Assembly (NCBI GenBank): GCA_023248155.1
Contig: JAHFFE010000003.1
Span: 80,042 to 144,041, forward strand
Reading direction: 5' to 3'
Origin: Candidatus Omnitrophota bacterium
Lineage (GTDB): Bacteria > Omnitrophota > Gorgyraeia > 1-14-0-20-64-10
DNA: 64,000 nucleotides
Of the stretch, positions 9,993 through 12,841 are shown one piece after another. The translations under genes and the position numbers were made by a program. The first letter of the stretch is position 1, and each line of letters starts with the position of its first letter. Under the pieces are notes generated by a model. It did not search any database and was not told where the DNA came from. It saw only the letters and a list, made by a program, of their open reading frames with translations.

Positions 9993-10001
9993 GCCTCCCA
10001 A

Positions 10002-10009
10002 AGCCCCCT
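10002..10009. repeat. Left copy of 8-bp direct repeat AGCCCCCT (putative target-site duplication)
   Basis: An identical 8-mer lies at 12768-12775, immediately outside the terminal inverted repeats of the AT-rich insertion. Confidence 0.6.
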
Positions 10010-10036
10010 GGTAGTGGGTCAGTTTGAATCAACAAG
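10010..10036 (+). repeat. Left terminal inverted repeat (IRL) of the element
   Basis: See the alignment in the mobile_element entry. Confidence 0.65.
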
Positions 10037-10139
10037 AACTATCAAACTACATCAAATTATAGCAAGATATGGCCAATTGGTATAAAAAGTAGTACAAAGT
10101 GCCATAGCAGATGCTATACTTACTCTGTGGGCTTCTACA

Positions 10140-10388
10140 ATGTCAATTAAAACCATCGAATCTCAAGTAAAACACCAATCTATACTTTTGGCAAAAGAAC
10201 TGCCAAACCTCATTGCTTCTTCTTTGATGGTTGGCAAGTTTATTGCTTTCTTTAATGGTCAAACAGTCATTAAAGACACTCACGAAGAATGTTTTAAAGA
10301 AGCTGAAAAGTATTTCGGAAGCAGTGGCTTTGTTATTTCCGAAGTTACAGTGAAGAAGCTAATGGTTTCTTCGCTTGTAAAGTTTTAA
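10140..10388 (+). CDS. Small hypothetical protein (82 aa), possibly DUF5678-like, translationally coupled to the downstream protease
   Basis: The stop TAA is directly followed by the ATG of the next ORF. The segment VGKFIAFFNGQTVIKDTHEECFKEAEKYFG resembles, from memory, small partner proteins found next to clan-AA proteases. Not verifiable here. Confidence 0.4.
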   Translation: MSIKTIESQVKHQSILLAKELPNLIASSLMVGKFIAFFNGQTVIKDTHEECFKEAEKYFGSSGFVISEVTVKKLMVSSLVKF

Positions 10389-10757
10389 ATGCTGGCTGCT
10401 CGTACCCCGGATGGTCTCTATACTTTCCCGTTAACAATCGCATTTAAAGGCCCTATTAAAAAGCTCACAGGACTTGTTGATACCGGAAGCAATATATGTG
10501 TATGCACATATAAAATTCCTACCACTCTTAAAGCTAGAGCGACCAGCTTCGGTCCAATTTCAAGCGCTGTTTCTACTAAGACAGTCCAGGCATTTGGATA
10601 TTCTTTAAATGTCGGATTTGATGGAAAATCTGTGATGACGCATGTATATCGCCTGCCGTTAAATATGCCCGGCATAGACTTTATTCTGGGAATGCCTATC
10701 CTCTCTAAGTGCAATACTACGATAAAAGCTGACTGTATGGAGATCGAGTGGATTTGA
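10389..10757 (+). CDS. Retropepsin-like (clan AA) aspartic protease, single domain
   Basis: Catalytic LVDTGSN (D-T-G-S) motif plus the downstream hydrophobic-hydrophobic-Gly motif GIDFILGMPIL typical of retropepsins. The 122-aa size fits a homodimeric single-domain protease. Confidence 0.65.
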   Translation: MLAARTPDGLYTFPLTIAFKGPIKKLTGLVDTGSNICVCTYKIPTTLKARATSFGPISSAVSTKTVQAFGYSLNVGFDGKSVMTHVYRLPLNMPGIDFILGMPILSKCNTTIKADCMEIEWI

Positions 10758-10780
10758 GGGTTGCTTCGTAGGTATTTCCA

Positions 10781-11029
10781 GTGTATAGTGTGTTTATGCC
10801 TAAGCGGTCAAGTAAGGAAAAAGACGAGAACGAAATAGCCCGCTCTATCCTAGAGCAGGTAACACAGTCCGCGTCAGATCACCCACAAAAAAATCCTGCT
10901 GCTGTAGCACTCGGGCGCCTTGGCGGCCTCAAGGGAGGCAATGCCCGAGCGGCTTCATTGTCCTCTGAAAAACGAAAATCCATTGCCAAGCGTGCTGCCA
11001 AAGCCCGCTGGTCAAAGAATCAAAGATAG
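10781..11029 (+). CDS. Small basic protein with a C-terminal GGLKGG…ARW (KGG-like) motif
   Basis: LGRLGGLKGGNARAASLSSEKRKSIAKRAAKARW is a widespread motif in small proteins of unknown function from phage and mobile contexts. Which of two in-frame ATGs (10781, 10796) is the true start is uncertain. Confidence 0.5.
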   Translation: MYSVFMPKRSSKEKDENEIARSILEQVTQSASDHPQKNPAAVALGRLGGLKGGNARAASLSSEKRKSIAKRAAKARWSKNQR

Positions 11030-11089
11030 AAAAAATCCTTGCACGAATGAATAAATCTATGTATACTGCATTTCGTGGAGGAATACAAA

Positions 11090-11623
11090 ATGGATATGTT
11101 CAAATTGAGGTTAAAAATCGGTCTCAATGAATTCGAGGCCGAAGGTGATCGTGAAATTGTTCTGAAGCAAAAAGAGTGGTGGTTTGAGAAAGTACAAGTA
11201 GCGCCTGCCGTAGTAGTTCCCCTGAAAACTGGTGTGTTTTCTCCTACATCAAAAAAACATTCTTCCGATGACGCACCTGCGGTTCCTTCTGAATTAGATC
11301 GTGTTCTGTCTGTTCAGAAAGGAAAGGTTGTATTGCAGGCAAAATTACCCGGAGACGGAAAAGAGGGCGATATCATTCTGATGATTTTGCTTGGTTATAA
11401 AGAACTTCTGAATGTAGAGCCCGTTTCTGCGGTTGCTCTTGGAAAAAGCCTTCGTCTTTCTGGGGTAGGGATTTCGAGAGCGGATAAATATATTTCCGAA
11501 TTAAATGAAAAGAAGTTTGTTCTAACATCTGGTTTTCGGGTTGGATCGAAACATACGCTCACTATACCCGGAATTGCTAAAGCTAAGGAATCCGTGAGGG
11601 AGATTATGGCTTTACTAGAATAA
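11090..11623 (+). CDS. Hypothetical protein (178 aa)
   Basis: A strong RBS (GGAGGA) lies 7 nt upstream of the ATG at 11090. The six-frame track starts at GTG 11075. No recognisable family. It is followed by a GC-rich hairpin. Confidence 0.5.
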   Translation: MDMFKLRLKIGLNEFEAEGDREIVLKQKEWWFEKVQVAPAVVVPLKTGVFSPTSKKHSSDDAPAVPSELDRVLSVQKGKVVLQAKLPGDGKEGDIILMILLGYKELLNVEPVSAVALGKSLRLSGVGISRADKYISELNEKKFVLTSGFRVGSKHTLTIPGIAKAKESVREIMALLE

Positions 11624-11649
11624 AAAACCGGGGAGTTCTAGCTCCCCGG
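11622..11649 (-). terminator. Intrinsic-terminator-like hairpin oriented for minus-strand transcription
   Basis: A-tract 11622-11627, then stem CCGGGGAG / CTCCCCGG with loop TTCTAG (11628-11649). On the minus strand this reads as a hairpin followed by UUUUUU. On the plus strand no U-tract follows. Confidence 0.45.
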
Positions 11650-11685
11650 CTAAACCTATAACATTGCACCCTGTGGAGGAATACA

Positions 11686-11745
11686 ATGTTCGCCCTTTTA
11701 TGGGCGGTTGGCTTCATTCATATTCTAGCTAGACCGCCACCATAA
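11686..11745 (+). CDS. Possible 19-aa hydrophobic micro-ORF (MFALLWAVGFIHILARPPP)
   Basis: It is preceded by GGAGGA with a 5-nt spacer. The 14-nt stretch GTGGAGGAATACAA is identical to the translation-initiation region of the 11090 ORF. Speculative. Confidence 0.25.
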   Translation: MFALLWAVGFIHILARPPP

Positions 11746-11774
11746 GTCAACGAGTAGCCTTTGGTTACCTCGGT

Positions 11775-11828
11775 AAAAAAATAAAAGGGGATAGCGGATT
11801 TGCTTTTCTACGGCTGACCGCTATCCCC
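11775..11828 (-). terminator. Strong intrinsic-terminator-like hairpin oriented for minus-strand transcription
   Basis: A-tract AAAAAAATAAAA (11775-11786), then an 11-bp perfect stem GGGGATAGCGG / CCGCTATCCCC (11787-11797 / 11818-11828) with a 20-nt loop. On the minus strand it is followed by a U-rich tract. Confidence 0.45.
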
Positions 11829-11889
11829 ACCCCGAGTGTAACTTGATTGAAATTTACCATAGCCGCCTAATCATTTACAAATGTTTTGT

Positions 11890-11918
11890 TTGACAATGCT
11901 TGAGCGGTCAAGTATAAT
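11890..11918 (+). promoter_or_regulatory. Consensus sigma70 promoter for the transposase (TTGACA-17nt-TATAAT), predicted leaderless transcript
   Basis: -35 TTGACA at 11890-11895, an exact 17-nt spacer, -10 TATAAT at 11913-11918. The ATG at 11925 lies 7 nt downstream of the -10, with no Shine-Dalgarno. Confidence 0.6.
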
Positions 11919-11924
11919 ACTAAT

Positions 11925-12752
11925 ATGAACAAGTTAACCACACAAAAACAAACTGCGATTCTTTCCGCTCTCATAGAGGGGAACTCCATTAGGGCTACTT
12001 GCCGAATGACTGGCGTAGCCAAAGGAACCGTTCTGTCTCTCTTAGGGCGTGTAGGGCTGGCGTGCGCCGAGTATCAGAACATAACTCTTAAGAACCTGAA
12101 CTGTAAGCGGATTCAGTGCGACGAAATCTGGGCGTTCTGCTACGCAAAAGAAAAGAATGTGCCTAAGAAGCTACAGGGCAAGTTTGGCTACGGCGATATG
12201 TGGACTTGGACAGCATTGGACGCTGATAGCAAACTGATCGTCTCTTTCCTTGTAGGGAACCGAGACGCTTACACTGGTCGGATATTTATGCAGGACTTGG
12301 CTTCTCGATTATCCAACAAGGTTCAGTTGACTACGGACGGACACAGGGTTTATTTAGAAGCGGTCGAATATGCCTTCGGTGGGGATATTGATTACGCCCA
12401 GATAGTCAAGATTTACGGAACAGAACCCCAACCCCAGAATACACGCTATAGTCCTTCAAAGTGCTTGGGAACTCAGCAGATTAAAATTAACGGGGAACCT
12501 GATCTTCGGCATACCTCTACCAGCTATGTTGAACGGCAGAACCTAACTATGCGGATGAGTATGCGTCGGTTTACTCGGCTGACCAATGCTTTCTCAAAGA
12601 AGGCAGATAATTTGAAGCACGCCGTAGCCCTGCATTTCATGTATTATAACTTCTGCCGGATTCATCAGACCTTGAGGGTTACTCCGGCTATGGAAGCAGG
12701 CGTTACAAACCGAATGTGGGCGTTAGAGGACATTTTACGGCTTGCTAATTGA
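11925..12752 (+). CDS. IS1-family transposase, single-ORF fused InsA(HTH)-InsB(DDE) form
   Basis: The N-terminal HTH ILSALIEGNSIRATCRMTGVAKGTVLSLL aligns with the IS1 InsA helix-turn-helix. The DDE regions QCDEIWAFCYAK, LTTDGHRVY and YVERQNLTMRMSMRRFTRLTNAFSKK…YYNF parallel IS1 InsB ([42 protein letters not shown]…). Confidence 0.85.
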   Translation: MNKLTTQKQTAILSALIEGNSIRATCRMTGVAKGTVLSLLGRVGLACAEYQNITLKNLNCKRIQCDEIWAFCYAKEKNVPKKLQGKFGYGDMWTWTALDADSKLIVSFLVGNRDAYTGRIFMQDLASRLSNKVQLTTDGHRVYLEAVEYAFGGDIDYAQIVKIYGTEPQPQNTRYSPSKCLGTQQIKINGEPDLRHTSTSYVERQNLTMRMSMRRFTRLTNAFSKKADNLKHAVALHFMYYNFCRIHQTLRVTPAMEAGVTNRMWALEDILRLAN

Positions 12753-12767
12753 AATTGAACCACTACC
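12741..12767 (-). repeat. Right terminal inverted repeat (IRR) of the element
   Basis: The reverse complement matches IRL at 22/27 positions. It contains the transposase stop codon. Confidence 0.65.
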
Positions 12768-12775
12768 AGCCCCCT
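12768..12775. repeat. Right copy of 8-bp direct repeat AGCCCCCT (putative target-site duplication)
   Basis: Identical to 10002-10009. IS1-family elements make 8-9-bp duplications. Confidence 0.6.
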
Positions 12776-12841
12776 CATTTCCTAGACGGCTGTCGTTCGT
12801 CATGATAAAATATTCTTTTTAACCCCGCTCAAGGAGTTTTC

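What the first reader, a model, noticed from the sequence alone, without database searches (positions are those of the whole stretch)
11622..11925. 300-nt gene-free gap with two minus-strand-oriented intrinsic terminators, a duplicated translation-initiation region and a 19-aa hydrophobic micro-ORF
Every annotated gene in the window is on the + strand. Yet this gap has two GC-rich hairpins whose U-tracts are on the minus strand (11622-11649 and 11775-11828, the latter an 11-bp perfect stem). The 14-mer GTGGAGGAATACAA, the RBS region of the 11090 ORF, recurs exactly at 11673-11686 in front of a 19-codon ORF (MFALLWAVGFIHILARPPP). Together this is compatible with an antisense or small RNA on the minus strand. 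It is also compatible with a small hydrophobic peptide resembling type-I toxin/antitoxin loci that often sit on mobile elements. Alternatively these are decayed remnants of a duplicated gene 5' end.
Basis: partly seen in the sequence, partly recalled or inferred. Interest (0 to 1): 0.5.

Follow-up and report, generated by a model that had tools for sequence, protein, structure and literature searches.

The report
Antisense small-RNA gene inside a transposon
The "empty" gap lies inside a jumping-gene element and most likely encodes a small backward-reading RNA, built on a copy of the neighbouring gene's ribosome-binding region, that can pair with and silence that gene.

Summary
All four observed features are real. 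The gap is the cargo/transposase junction of a 2.76-kb IS1-family transposon (10008-12769).

Hairpin 1 with its T-run, a minus-strand promoter (TTGACT-17-TAGAAT) and the duplicated 14-mer together define a predicted ~95-nt minus-strand sRNA (about 11715 to 11620).

Four other lineages carry the same module downstream of homologues of the 177-aa winged-helix gene (31-78% aa identity):
- The three helices are kept through compensatory changes (11 of 24 pairs).
- The promoter geometry is kept.
- The downstream copy changes in step with each gene's own ribosome-binding region (GTGGAGGAATACAA; GGGGTACGCTATG; GGGAGGCGCTATG/GGGAGACGCTATG).
- In three lineages the terminator loop also matches a 5'UTR hairpin loop.

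This has the topology of par(pAD1) RNA I/RNA II and resembles FinP/traJ. The likely target is a DNA-binding protein, not a toxin peptide.

Hairpin 2 is a leftward terminator. In relatives it sits just upstream of a tRNA gene that this copy has lost.

The micro-ORF keeps an ILARPPP motif in 4 of 5 lineages, with synonymous changes. It is not conserved as a hydrophobic peptide, so the type-I toxin reading is not supported.

No expression data exist; every RNA is predicted.

The parts
10008..10036 (.). Left terminal inverted repeat of the IS1-family transposon (CTGGTAGTGGGTCAGTTTGAATCAACAAG)
   Evidence: Inverted match to 12741-12769. The same GGTAGTGGGTCAGTTTGAA ends are found in at least 25 related loci. 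The low-GC island spans 10000-12800.
11039..11067 (+). Predicted promoter of the 177-aa gene (TTGCAC-17-TATACT). The inferred start near 11074 puts the 14-mer at the very 5' end of the mRNA.
   Evidence: Read from the sequence. L005 has TTGTGT-16-TAGAAT at the same place. It scores below the scan tool's threshold. Inferred.
11075..11088 (+). Copy 1 of the 14-mer: Shine-Dalgarno region (TIR) of the 177-aa gene and proposed target of the sRNA
11090..11623 (+). 177-aa cargo gene: N-terminal beta-hairpin/helix domain plus C-terminal winged helix (MarR/AspA/F-93-like). Member of a family with no Pfam entry.
   Evidence: No Pfam, NCBIfam or PHROG hit. 551 representatives at E<=1e-3. AF2 model pLDDT 86.5. 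Foldseek hits to winged-helix regulators.
11620..11715 (-). Predicted ~95-nt antisense sRNA. From the 5' end: hairpin A, hairpin B with the anti-SD at its apex, terminator hairpin 1, U-run.
   Evidence: MFE -44.1 kcal/mol, z = -5.7. The same architecture folds independently in L005, L134, L149 and L151. Compensatory pairs.
11622..11649 (-). Hairpin 1 plus T-run: intrinsic terminator of the sRNA, directly after the stop codon of the 177-aa gene
   Evidence: minus strand, 10 pairs, 7 GC. 96.8% identical in L005 with only a loop change. Replaced by different but perfectly paired stems in L134, L149 and L151.
11660..11690 (.). Hairpin B: inverted repeat AACATTG (11660-11666) / CAATGTT (11684-11690) enclosing copy 2 of the TIR. 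The SD lies at the apex and the ATG in the stem.
   Evidence: The analogue ATAGCG..CGCTAT is at the same place in L134/L149/L151.
11673..11686 (+). Copy 2 of the 14-mer. Its complement lies in the sRNA.
   Evidence: A copy sits about 50-60 nt after the stop in all five lineages (49-51 nt in WIN, L005 and L134) and matches each lineage's own TIR.
11686..11745 (+). 19-codon micro-ORF MFALLWAVGFIHILARPPP*
   Evidence: Open and the same length in L005, with 5 synonymous and 2 non-synonymous differences. ILARPPP is kept in L149 and ILPRPPP in L151, with Arg encoded by AGA, CGT or CGA. Absent from L134.
11691..11706 (.). Hairpin A (CGCCC-TTTTAT-GGGCG)
   Evidence: Replaced by TTAGCC/GGCTAA (L134) and CAGCC/GGCTG (L149, L151).
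11722..11750 (-). Predicted sRNA promoter: -35 TTGACT (11750-11745), 17 nt, -10 TAGAAT (11727-11722)
   Evidence: 10 of 12. The same position and exact 17-nt spacing hold in L005 (TTGACT/TAAGAT), L134 (TTGCAG/TATGGT), L149 (TTGTAG/TAAGAT) and L151 (TTGCAG/TAGAAT).
11775..11828 (-). Hairpin 2 (11-bp stem, 20-nt loop) plus T-run: leftward terminator at the boundary between the cargo and the tRNA/transposase module
   Evidence: The stem is 100% identical and the loop 20% identical in L005. Analogous A-run plus hairpin lies 0-25 nt upstream of a + strand tRNA gene in at least 10 related loci, and 44 nt upstream in one more.
11829..11889 (.). Spacer left by loss of a tRNA gene. L005 has about 124 extra aligned bases here, including a 92-nt tRNA-Ser(ACU). 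Contains a weak leftward promoter candidate, TTGTAA-18-TAAATT (11880-11851).
   Evidence: The promoter candidate is read from the sequence (8 of 12) and is inferred.
11890..11924 (+). Transposase promoter TTGACA-17-TATAAT, with near-palindrome CTTGAGCGGTCAAG (11899-11912) in the spacer. The -10 ends 6 nt before the ATG, so the mRNA is leaderless.
   Evidence: 12 of 12. The block is 88-100% identical in many loci from different phyla. 58 of 79 loci have a -10-like hexamer 5-8 nt before the start codon.
11925..12752 (+). IS1-family DDE transposase, single ORF, 275 aa
   Evidence: PF03400, 26.2 bits against a cut-off of 24.1. NCBIfam transpos_IS1 gives 2e-16 but falls below its curated cut-off. 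More than 8000 homologues.
12741..12769 (.). Right terminal inverted repeat

Best explanation
The gap is the junction between cargo and transposase inside an IS1-family transposon (10008-12769). It holds two leftward (minus-strand) transcription terminators that have different jobs.

(1) Between the stop codon of the 177-aa winged-helix cargo gene and position ~11750 lies a small convergent gene for a ~95-nt antisense RNA. Its promoter is TTGACT-17-TAGAAT (11750-11722), the inferred start is near 11715, and the terminator is hairpin 1 plus the U-run ending near 11620. The template of this RNA is a direct copy of the cargo gene's own 5'UTR/ribosome-binding region. The RNA therefore carries, at the apex of its middle hairpin, a 14-nt sequence (UUGUAUUCCUCCAC) perfectly complementary to the Shine-Dalgarno region of the 177-aa gene's mRNA. 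Inferred mechanism: the sRNA pairs with that region and blocks ribosome binding. It is also fully complementary to any read-through 3' extension of the same mRNA. Because the two promoters face each other, transcriptional interference could add switch-like behaviour.

(2) Hairpin 2 ends a second leftward unit coming from the transposase-promoter side. In relatives that unit runs antisense across a tRNA gene that this copy has deleted. Here it is probably a leftover insulator.

The 19-codon ORF arises because the copied region includes an SD and an ATG. Its C-terminal ILARPPP motif is conserved, so it may be translated, but it is not a conserved hydrophobic toxin.

Shown: the sequence features, their conservation, the compensatory changes and the co-variation of the two copies. 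Inferred: transcription of the sRNA, its 5' end, the pairing, and repression.
For: Context:
- Inverted repeats at both ends.
- Low-GC island.
- IS1 DDE domain.

sRNA signals in the window:
- Minus-strand promoter scoring 10 of 12 and a minus-strand terminator.
- Fold z = -5.7.

Conservation against L005, whose 177-aa gene is 75% identical at the DNA level:
- Hairpin 1: 96.8%.
- Pre-ATG block: 91.4%.
- Micro-ORF: 88.3%.
- Adjacent spacer: 53.6%.
- Hairpin-2 loop: 20%.

Three more lineages have the same layout after homologues only about 27-31% identical to the window protein (L134 Nitrospira, L149, L151).
- Their minus-strand RNAs fold independently into the same helices, z -4.0 to -5.2.
- On the structure-guided alignment 100% of 85 cells pair and 11 of 24 pairs change on both sides. 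0 of 500 shuffles reach this, and slid controls pair 31-47%. With five sequences, 14 of 24 pairs are compensatory.
- Promoter geometry is identical in all five: TTGnnn, exactly 17 nt, TAnnnT, 11-15 nt from hairpin A.

Co-variation of target and copy:
- WIN 14 of 14 (GTGGAGGAATACAA); L005 16 of 16.
- L134 13 of 13 (GGGGTACGCTATG).
- L149 and L151 12 of 13, where the one difference gives a G-U pair.
- In L134, L149 and L151 the terminator-loop 7-mer equals the loop of a 5'UTR hairpin: GGACAAG, GTGCAAG, GTGCAAT.

The 177-aa gene uses an SD-led start, whereas the element's core genes are leaderless.

Hairpin 2: the stem is invariant while the loop is unconstrained. An equivalent A-run plus hairpin lies just upstream of a + strand tRNA in at least 11 relatives, and leftward promoter candidates lie between the tRNA and the transposase in 12 of 21.

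The par(pAD1) topology is taken from PMC4147584.
Against: - There is no transcript evidence of any kind.
- Only about three independent lineages exist (WIN/L005, L134, L149/L151). The alignment used for the pair counts was built with the structure in mind.
- The three core helices contain only Watson-Crick pairs, so they fit either strand. The strand call rests on promoter and terminator signals.
- The sRNA promoters in L134, L149 and L151 are weak (7-8 of 12) and would not pass the scan tool's threshold.
- Six other lineages with homologues of the 177-aa gene lack the block (L070, L140, L141, L144, L145, L147), so it is dispensable.
- The ILARPPP conservation, with Arg encoded by AGA, CGT or CGA, is not explained by an sRNA-only model and suggests the + strand is translated.
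- Hairpin 2 has a 20-nt loop, atypical for intrinsic terminators, and no strong leftward promoter precedes it in the window.
Confidence: 0.6

Rival explanations
1. The functional product is the micro-ORF on the + strand. It would be a small protein or a polyproline ribosome-arrest or leader peptide, co-transcribed with the 177-aa gene. The hairpins would be mRNA structures or insulators, and no sRNA would be made.
For: The ORF has a strong SD (GGAGG, 6-nt spacing). It is open in all five lineages. ILARPPP is identical in WIN, L005 and L149, and L151 has ILPRPPP, with many synonymous differences and Arg encoded by AGA, CGT or CGA. Between WIN and L005 there are 5 synonymous and 2 non-synonymous differences, P about 0.025 under random placement. 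What follows PPP is variable (stop, +6 aa, +46 aa), as expected after an arrest point.
Against: - The L134 peptide is unrelated (MLAFRLSGKFTIAK), yet the RNA architecture and the TIR copy are kept.
- The SD and AUG are sequestered in hairpin B on the + RNA.
- No convincing + strand promoter lies between hairpin 1 and the ORF (6 of 12).
- This model does not explain why the copy must track the upstream gene's TIR, why the terminator loop tracks the 5'UTR loop, or why the T-runs are on the minus strand.
- It is compatible with the sRNA model rather than exclusive of it.
Confidence: 0.15
2. The repeated motifs and palindromes are DNA operators for the winged-helix 177-aa protein (autoregulation). 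They are not RNA pairing elements.
For: The 177-aa protein has a MarR/AspA-like winged helix. Hairpin B (AACATTG..CAATGTT; ATAGCG..CGCTAT) and hairpin 2 are inverted repeats of the kind that dimeric regulators bind.
Against: - At the gene's real TIR only one half of the palindrome is present. The shared part is the SD-containing stretch, not the palindrome arms.
- Compensatory changes preserve pairing rather than a fixed recognition sequence.
- Operators do not need flanking T-runs or a TTG-17-TAnnnT promoter at a fixed distance.
Confidence: 0.1
3. A type-I toxin-antitoxin module: the hydrophobic 19-aa peptide is a membrane toxin repressed by the overlapping antisense RNA. It would serve as an addiction module for the transposon.
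For: The window peptide is hydrophobic (GRAVY 1.25) and 19 aa long, like Ibs. The predicted sRNA overlaps its SD and first 10 codons. The SD and AUG are sequestered in the + RNA. The module sits on a mobile element.
Against: - Hydrophobicity is not conserved: L005 has R4, and L149/L151 have GRAVY about 0 with 3-4 charged residues.
- The hydrophobic run is at most 15 residues.
- Length varies from 14 to 64 aa.
- The conserved part is ILARPPP, not a transmembrane segment.
- The L134 peptide is unrelated.
Confidence: 0.07
4. A non-functional relic: a decaying duplication of the gene's 5' end plus chance hairpins.
For: The block is recognisably paralogous to the 5'UTR of the 177-aa gene (about 36 nt of similarity around the 14-mer). 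Six lineages do without it.
Against: It is more conserved than the adjacent CDS. It is retained across about 27-31% protein identity with compensatory changes and co-evolving copies.
Confidence: 0.03

Closest known systems
par locus of plasmid pAD1 (RNA I / RNA II, Fst type-I toxin-antitoxin)
   Same: The mRNA and a short sRNA converge, and their 3' ends meet at one terminator stem-loop. Complementarity at the ribosome-binding site is created by direct repeats present in both genes, and pairing there blocks ribosome binding (PMC4147584). Here the 14-mer direct repeat, and in L134/L149/L151 also a loop 7-mer, play the role of DRa/DRb.
   Different: The regulated gene is a 177-aa winged-helix protein, not a ~33-aa Fst/Ldr membrane peptide. 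The terminator has a U-run only on the sRNA side. There is no sequence or Rfam relationship. The host is an IS1-family transposon of environmental bacteria. Toxicity and addiction are not indicated.
FinP / traJ antisense control of F-like plasmids
   Same: A ~80-nt antisense RNA made of stem-loops plus a terminator. Its loops are complementary to stem-loops of the target's 5'UTR, which contains the RBS of a regulatory protein gene. The target is a regulator, not a toxin. (From general knowledge of the system.)
   Different: FinP is encoded opposite the traJ 5'UTR itself (cis). Here the sRNA gene lies at the 3' end of the target gene and reaches the 5'UTR through a duplicated copy. The Rfam FinP match is chance level: 15.1 bits against a gathering score of 45, E = 2.6.
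IS10/Tn10 RNA-OUT
   Same: A transposon-borne antisense RNA that blocks ribosome binding on a transposon mRNA. (General knowledge.)
   Different: RNA-OUT overlaps the 5' end of the transposase mRNA. Here the transposase mRNA is predicted to be leaderless, with nothing for an antisense RNA to cover. The sRNA is directed at an accessory gene.
IS1 family, single-ORF subgroup with passenger genes (the ISfinder 'ISMhu11' group, recalled from memory)
   Same: DDE_Tnp_IS1 domain, single-ORF transposase of ~275 aa, terminal inverted repeats, variable passenger DNA.
   Different: I found no paper describing any of the following: the conserved 77-aa leaderless accessory gene, the palindrome-bearing leaderless transposase promoter, the tRNA cargo or the sRNA module. 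The searchable library is incomplete.

Membership tests
Type-I toxin-antitoxin system | Small (<60 aa) hydrophobic, membrane-active toxin peptide conserved among homologues | tested here: not met
   GRAVY is 1.25 (WIN), 0.74 (L005), -0.16 (L149) and 0.05 (L151). The L134 peptide is unrelated. Length ranges from 14 to 64 aa.
Type-I toxin-antitoxin system | Antisense sRNA that pairs with the toxin mRNA's translation-initiation region | tested here: inconclusive
   A predicted sRNA overlaps the micro-ORF's SD and AUG. This is prediction only, and the co-varying repeat points at the 177-aa gene instead.
Type-I toxin-antitoxin system | Toxicity of the peptide when the sRNA is absent | not testable with these tools
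   Needs expression experiments.
par(pAD1)/Fst-RNA II family | Convergent mRNA and sRNA sharing a terminator stem-loop | tested here: inconclusive
   Hairpin 1 lies directly after the stop codon of the 177-aa gene and ends the predicted sRNA. A U-run is present only on the minus strand, so termination of the mRNA there is doubtful.
par(pAD1)/Fst-RNA II family | Direct repeats in both genes that give complementarity around the RBS | tested here: met
   Repeats of 14, 16, 13, 12/13 and 12/13 nt in five lineages, co-varying between lineages.
par(pAD1)/Fst-RNA II family | The target encodes an Fst/Ldr-type peptide | tested here: not met
   The target is a 177-aa winged-helix protein.
FinP (Rfam RF00107) | Match to the covariance model at the gathering score | tested here: not met
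   15.1 bits against 45, E = 2.6. No Rfam family reaches its gathering score anywhere in the window.
Rho-independent (intrinsic) terminator | GC-rich stem with a short loop, immediately followed by a U-run | tested here: met
   Hairpin 1 on the minus strand: 10 pairs, 7 GC, 6-nt loop, tail TTTTATTCTA directly after a stem that ends in TT.
Rho-independent (intrinsic) terminator | The same criteria, applied to hairpin 2 | tested here: inconclusive
   11-bp perfect stem and tail TTTTATTTTTTT on the minus strand, but a 20-nt loop. Relatives have the same type of hairpin, with 16-21-nt loops, in several loci.
IS1 family insertion sequence / transposon | Transposase with the DDE_Tnp_IS1 domain | tested here: met
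   PF03400 scores 26.2 bits against a cut-off of 24.1. The NCBIfam IS1 model gives 2e-16 but 60.5 bits, below its cut-off of 100. Sources name homologues 'IS1 family transposase'.
IS1 family insertion sequence / transposon | Terminal inverted repeats and a target-site duplication | tested here: inconclusive
   The inverted repeats are clear (24 of 29). CCCC flanks both ends, but a 4-nt C-run is weak evidence for a duplication. No empty site was examined.
Polyproline ribosome-arrest / leader peptide | A conserved run of three or more Pro at or near the end of a short ORF, with what follows being unconstrained | tested here: inconclusive
   RPPP is conserved in 4 of 5 lineages with variable continuation. 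Arrest itself cannot be tested here.

The most novel reading that the evidence does not exclude
The module is a three-layer switch not described before. A winged-helix transposon regulator is controlled by a convergent sRNA that is templated on a co-evolving copy of the regulator's own 5'UTR. The sRNA promoter is embedded in a conserved polyproline (ILARPPP) arrest micro-ORF. Translation state (EF-P or proline supply) and read-through transcription would then decide whether the sRNA is made. All of this rides on a very broad-host-range IS1-like transposon family whose core genes use leaderless mRNAs and which carries tRNA genes with anticodon/body mismatches.
Probability: 0.2. Interest if true: 0.8.

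Novelty: new variant of a known kind. Interest (0 to 1): 0.6.

Why it matters
If the sRNA is real, it is a clear natural case of trans-acting antisense specificity created and maintained by duplicating a gene's own ribosome-binding region. It was recognised here purely from co-variation between two sites about 600 nt apart.

It would also give a regulatory handle on an uncharacterised winged-helix accessory protein. That protein family has about 550 representative clusters (at 50% identity) at E<=1e-3 and no Pfam entry, and in 7 of the 11 lineages examined here it sits next to an IS1-family transposase.

The transposase family is itself notable. It is 60-70% identical across Acidobacteriota, Nitrospirota, Thermodesulfobacteriota, Patescibacteria, Planctomycetota and others, with a near-invariant leaderless promoter. 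That could be a mechanism for host-independent expression.

The work also shows that a 'gene-free gap' in such elements can hold the element's control circuitry.

Tried and rejected
- Rfam at gathering thresholds over the whole window gave nothing. At E<=10 on the gap it gave only chance hits: a snoRNA and FinP at 15 bits.
- tRNA/tmRNA scan of the window: none.
- Exact-protein look-ups gave three contigs identical to the window across the gap, so they carry no comparative information.
- A metagenome scan for the 19-mer TGTGGAGGAATACAATGTT gave 10 hits, of which 9 are chance and 1 is the already known L006 contig.
- Viral-contig scans: the hairpin-2 pattern gave 0 hits. The 16-mer gave 34 hits that I did not examine; I assumed they are chance.
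- BLAST of the gap against 80 related transposase loci matched only the promoter block 11881-11930 outside L005.
- The minus-strand 37-aa ORF (11604-11717) is interrupted by a stop in L005.
- The long-range + strand pairing of 11607-11622 with 11721-11742 seen in the MFE is not conserved in L005.
- A dedicated + strand promoter for the micro-ORF reaches only 6 of 12.
- The apparent direct copy of the right IR at 11843-11866 is better explained as the scar flanking the tRNA deletion.
- The similarity of the hairpin-2 loop to the transposase 3' end (11806-11815 against 12733-12742) has the opposite polarity in L005, so it is chance.
- RNAduplex energies are too noisy to rank targets, so I used contiguous complementarity instead.
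- MAFFT alone could not align the divergent sRNAs. I had to pad a structure-guided alignment with N to obtain the tool's pair counts.


Full report
**1. The observation**

- Hairpin 1 is CCGGGGAG-TTCTAG-CTCCCCGG (11628-11649). On the + strand it is preceded by six A (11622-11627), which form a T-run after the stem on the minus strand. The scan tool calls it a minus-strand terminator.
- Hairpin 2 has an 11-bp perfect stem (11787-11797/11818-11828) and a 20-nt loop. On the minus strand it is followed by TTTTATTTTTTT.
- GTGGAGGAATACAA occurs exactly twice, at 11075-11088 and 11673-11686.
- The micro-ORF runs from ATG 11686 to TAA 11745.

Taken alone in one window these features are not beyond chance. 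The scan finds 3 terminator-like sites where 2.1 are expected. Everything below rests on comparison with other elements.

**2. Where the gap sits**

The gap is inside a mobile element.
- A low-GC island (36-45% against about 54% in the flanks) runs from about 10000 to 12800.
- It lies between an LptD-like ORF and a UDP-glucose-dehydrogenase-like ORF.
- It is bounded by 29-nt imperfect inverted repeats at 10008-10036 and 12741-12769.
- The last gene (11925-12752) is an IS1-family DDE transposase with thousands of 60-72% identical homologues.

In 80 related genome loci from many phyla the same end sequence, GGTAGTGGGTCAGTTTGAA, follows the transposase stop. In at least 25 loci it recurs 0.9-2.6 kb upstream of the transposase ATG. 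The family therefore carries 1-2.5 kb of cargo.

In the window the cargo is:
- an 82-aa ORF;
- a 122-aa retroviral-type aspartyl-protease-like ORF;
- a 77-aa K/R-rich ORF, which is present in most family members;
- the 177-aa ORF.

The gap is the junction between the 177-aa cargo gene and the transposase.

**3. First comparator**

A groundwater element (L005 and its duplicates) has the same 77-aa/177-aa/transposase order in a different chromosomal site. Identity by segment:

| Segment | Identity to L005 |
|---|---|
| 177-aa CDS | 75% |
| Hairpin 1 | 96.8% (the one substitution is in the loop) |
| 35 nt before the micro-ORF | 91.4% |
| Micro-ORF | 88.3% |
| Following spacer | 53.6% |
| Hairpin-2 stems | 100% |
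| Hairpin-2 loop | 20% |

L005 also has about 124 extra aligned bases between hairpin 2 and the transposase promoter, including a 92-nt tRNA-Ser(ACU) gene on the + strand. The window has lost it.

**4. A minus-strand sRNA gene**

The scan finds TTGACT-17-TAGAAT on the minus strand at 11750-11722 (10 of 12). A transcript starting near 11715 and ending at the U-run of hairpin 1 would be about 95 nt. It folds into hairpin A, hairpin B and the terminator, with z = -5.7. Hairpin B carries UUGUAUUCCUCCAC, the exact complement of the 14-mer, around its apex.

**5. Deeper comparators**

A full HMMER search showed that the 177-aa protein belongs to a family with no Pfam entry, with 551 representatives. 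Its C-terminal half models as a winged helix (pLDDT 86.5; MarR/AspA/F-93-like hits).

Looking up contigs for homologues gave three more lineages with the same downstream layout:
- L134, Nitrospira sp. CP054184.1, with the same transposon type;
- L149 and L151, which sit next to an IS1-family-like transposase that in L149 is called as two ORFs.

In all five lineages the order is:
1. stop codon;
2. A-rich run;
3. GC-rich hairpin;
4. (C)TAAACC...;
5. an inverted repeat enclosing an SD, with the ATG in its 3' arm;
6. a second small hairpin;
7. 11-15 nt of spacer;
8. the complement of TAnnnT;
9. exactly 17 nt;
10. the complement of TTGnnn.

The stems differ in sequence but always pair:
- Hairpin 1: CCGGGGAG, GGCCAACCAG, GGGCTGATC, GGGCTGGTCAG.
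- Hairpin B: AACATTG against ATAGCG.
- Hairpin A: CGCCC, TTAGCC, CAGCC.

Each minus-strand RNA, folded on its own, gives the same architecture (z from -4.0 to -5.9).

On a structure-guided alignment the tool counts 100% of 85 cells paired and 11 of 24 pairs changed on both sides. 0 of 500 shuffles reach this, and slid controls pair 31-47%. With the fifth sequence, 14 of 24 pairs are compensatory. Two caveats apply. I built the alignment with the structure in mind, and there are only about three independent lineages.

**6. The decisive point: the copy tracks the gene's own ribosome-binding region**

| Lineage | Gene's TIR | Downstream copy | Match |
|---|---|---|---|
| WIN | GTGGAGGAATACAA | same | 14 of 14 |
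| L005 | CTGTGGAGGAATACAA | same | 16 of 16 |
| L134 | GGGGTACGCTATG | same | 13 of 13 |
| L149, L151 | GGGAGGCGCTATG | GGGAGACGCTATG | 12 of 13; the difference gives a G-U pair in an RNA duplex |

The copy lies about 50-60 nt after the stop codon in every lineage: 49-51 nt in WIN, L005 and L134, slightly further in L149 and L151.

In L134, L149 and L151 the 7-nt loop of hairpin 1 also equals the loop of a hairpin in the gene's 5'UTR: GGACAAG, GTGCAAG and GTGCAAT respectively.

The two sites are identical on the same strand, so they cannot pair with each other. An RNA transcribed from the opposite strand of the copy pairs with both. Lineages with the homologous gene but without the block show only 5-8-nt chance matches.

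This is the topology of par of pAD1. There, convergent RNAs meet at a terminator, and direct repeats provide the complementarity that blocks ribosome binding (PMC4147584). It also resembles FinP/traJ in using loop-loop contacts on a regulator's 5'UTR. The target here is a winged-helix protein, not a toxin peptide.

Within the element this gene is the one that uses an SD. The core genes, the transposase and the 77-aa ORF, have a -10 hexamer 5-8 nt before the start codon in 58 of 79 and 24 of 28 loci respectively, against a background of 8%. They almost never have an SD, so they are predicted to be leaderless.

**7. The micro-ORF**

It exists in all five lineages because the copied region contains an SD and an ATG.

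| Lineage | Peptide |
|---|---|
| WIN | MFALLWAVGFIHILARPPP* |
| L005 | MFARLWAFGFIHILARPPP* |
| L149 | MSALRLFEWQPILARPPPHYNFK... (64 aa) |
| L151 | MSALRLFEWQPILPRPPPLCNLKA* |
| L134 | MLAFRLSGKFTIAK* |

- Hydrophobicity is not conserved, so the type-I toxin reading fails.
- ILARPPP is kept in WIN, L005 and L149 through synonymous changes: Ile ATT/ATC, Leu CTA/TTA, Ala GCT/GCC/GCA, Arg AGA/CGT/CGA, Pro CCG/CCA. L151 has Pro (CCT) in place of the Ala.
- Between WIN and L005 there are 5 synonymous and 2 non-synonymous differences (P about 0.025).
- The same bases also form the sRNA promoter's -10 and spacer. The -10 alternates between TAGAAT and TAAGAT, and both encode Ile-Leu. The signal is therefore confounded, but an sRNA-only model does not explain the Arg codons.
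- I consider translation of the micro-ORF plausible (roughly even odds) and its role open. A polyproline arrest motif is one possibility.

**8. Hairpin 2**

This is a different feature. In about 21 of the 80 related loci a + strand tRNA gene lies 80-350 nt upstream of the transposase ATG. In at least 10 of them a GC-rich hairpin preceded by an A-run lies 0-25 nt upstream of that tRNA, and in one more 44 nt upstream. That arrangement is a minus-strand terminator, and several have 16-21-nt loops like hairpin 2. Leftward promoter candidates lie between the tRNA and the transposase promoter in 12 of the 21, whereas + strand promoters in front of the tRNA are seen in only 4.

Hairpin 2 therefore marks the left boundary of the tRNA/transposase core. 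It most likely stops leftward transcription coming from the divergent promoter region. In the window the tRNA is gone and only a weak leftward promoter candidate remains (TTGTAA-18-TAAATT, 11880-11851). Why the leftward unit runs antisense to a tRNA is not explained.

**9. Verdict**

The best explanation is a par/FinP-like antisense control module for a winged-helix accessory gene of an IS1-family transposon, plus a family-wide leftward terminator. Confidence is about 0.6, because every RNA is predicted and no expression data exist. It is a new variant of a known kind.

Noticed in passing
window 11890-11927, and the same block in L010-L089: The transposase promoter TTGACAATGCTTGAGCGGTCAAGTATAAT is conserved at the DNA level (88-100% over 29-41 nt) in elements from many phyla whose transposases are only 60-70% identical. 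It contains a 14-bp (near-)palindrome, CTTGAGCGCTCAAG, between -35 and -10. The -10 ends 6-7 nt before the ATG with no SD, so the transposase mRNA is predicted to be leaderless.
   Followed up: partly
window 10761-11029: The 77-aa K/R-rich ORF (true start ATG 10796) is a core gene of the transposon family, found in most of the 80 loci. It also looks leaderless (TTGCTT-17-TATAGT, then 6 nt, then ATG). Its first 19 nt (ATGCCTAAGCGGTCAAGTA) resemble the spacer of the transposase promoter (11896-11914, 89%). Some tRNA-less relatives carry a second, minus-strand partial copy of this gene 100-270 nt upstream of the transposase.
   Followed up: partly
L005 4355-4446; L012, L018, L019, L021, L023, L028, L031, L037, L038, L040, L051-L053, L055, L057, L068, L081, L144 (upstream of the transposase): About a quarter of family members carry tRNA genes inside the transposon, and many look mismatched. 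Some are 73-75-nt class-I bodies with Ser anticodons GCU or ACU. Others are 91-97-nt long-variable-arm bodies called Ile(UAU) or Leu(UAG/CAA). Several are followed by a T-run. Whether they are charged, and with which amino acid, is unknown.
   Followed up: partly
L028, L036, L045, L051 (upstream of the called tRNA); L052 (downstream): A second tRNA-like element that ARAGORN does not call recurs next to the tRNA: ...CCAGTTCGGGGTTTGCACCC...GGGGTTCGATTCCCCGGCGCTCCA(CCA).
   Followed up: no
window 10140-10757: The window's element has two extra cargo ORFs absent from L005: an 82-aa ORF and a 122-aa ORF that matches the retroviral aspartyl protease domain (PF00077, 4e-5). L005 instead has a 145-aa minus-strand ORF there.
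   Followed up: no
window 11798-11817; L031 (hairpin upstream of its tRNA): The long loops of hairpin-2-type hairpins in the window and in L031 share the 9-mer TTTCTACGG, although the stems are unrelated. Loops of 16-21 nt recur in L005, L012, L031, L040, L055, L068 and L134. This is unusual for plain terminators.
   Followed up: no
L149 2190-2560; L151 1540-1700: In L149 and L151 the 177-aa-like gene and its sRNA block sit upstream of an IS1-family-like transposase gene. In L149 it is called as two ORFs (103 + 169 aa), and L151 is cut at the contig end. The SD of this gene is buried in a hairpin (GGGGCCTCC-gtcaa-GGAGGCC). The winged-helix/sRNA module is therefore shared by two IS1 subgroups.
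   Followed up: no
window 10002-10007 and 12770-12774: CCCC flanks both inverted repeats and could be a 4-bp target-site duplication. In L005 the similarity between the two ends extends about 18 nt beyond GGTAGTG (GAAGGG..GCCTAGG), and the element sits about 60 nt upstream of a host tRNA-Val gene.
   Followed up: no
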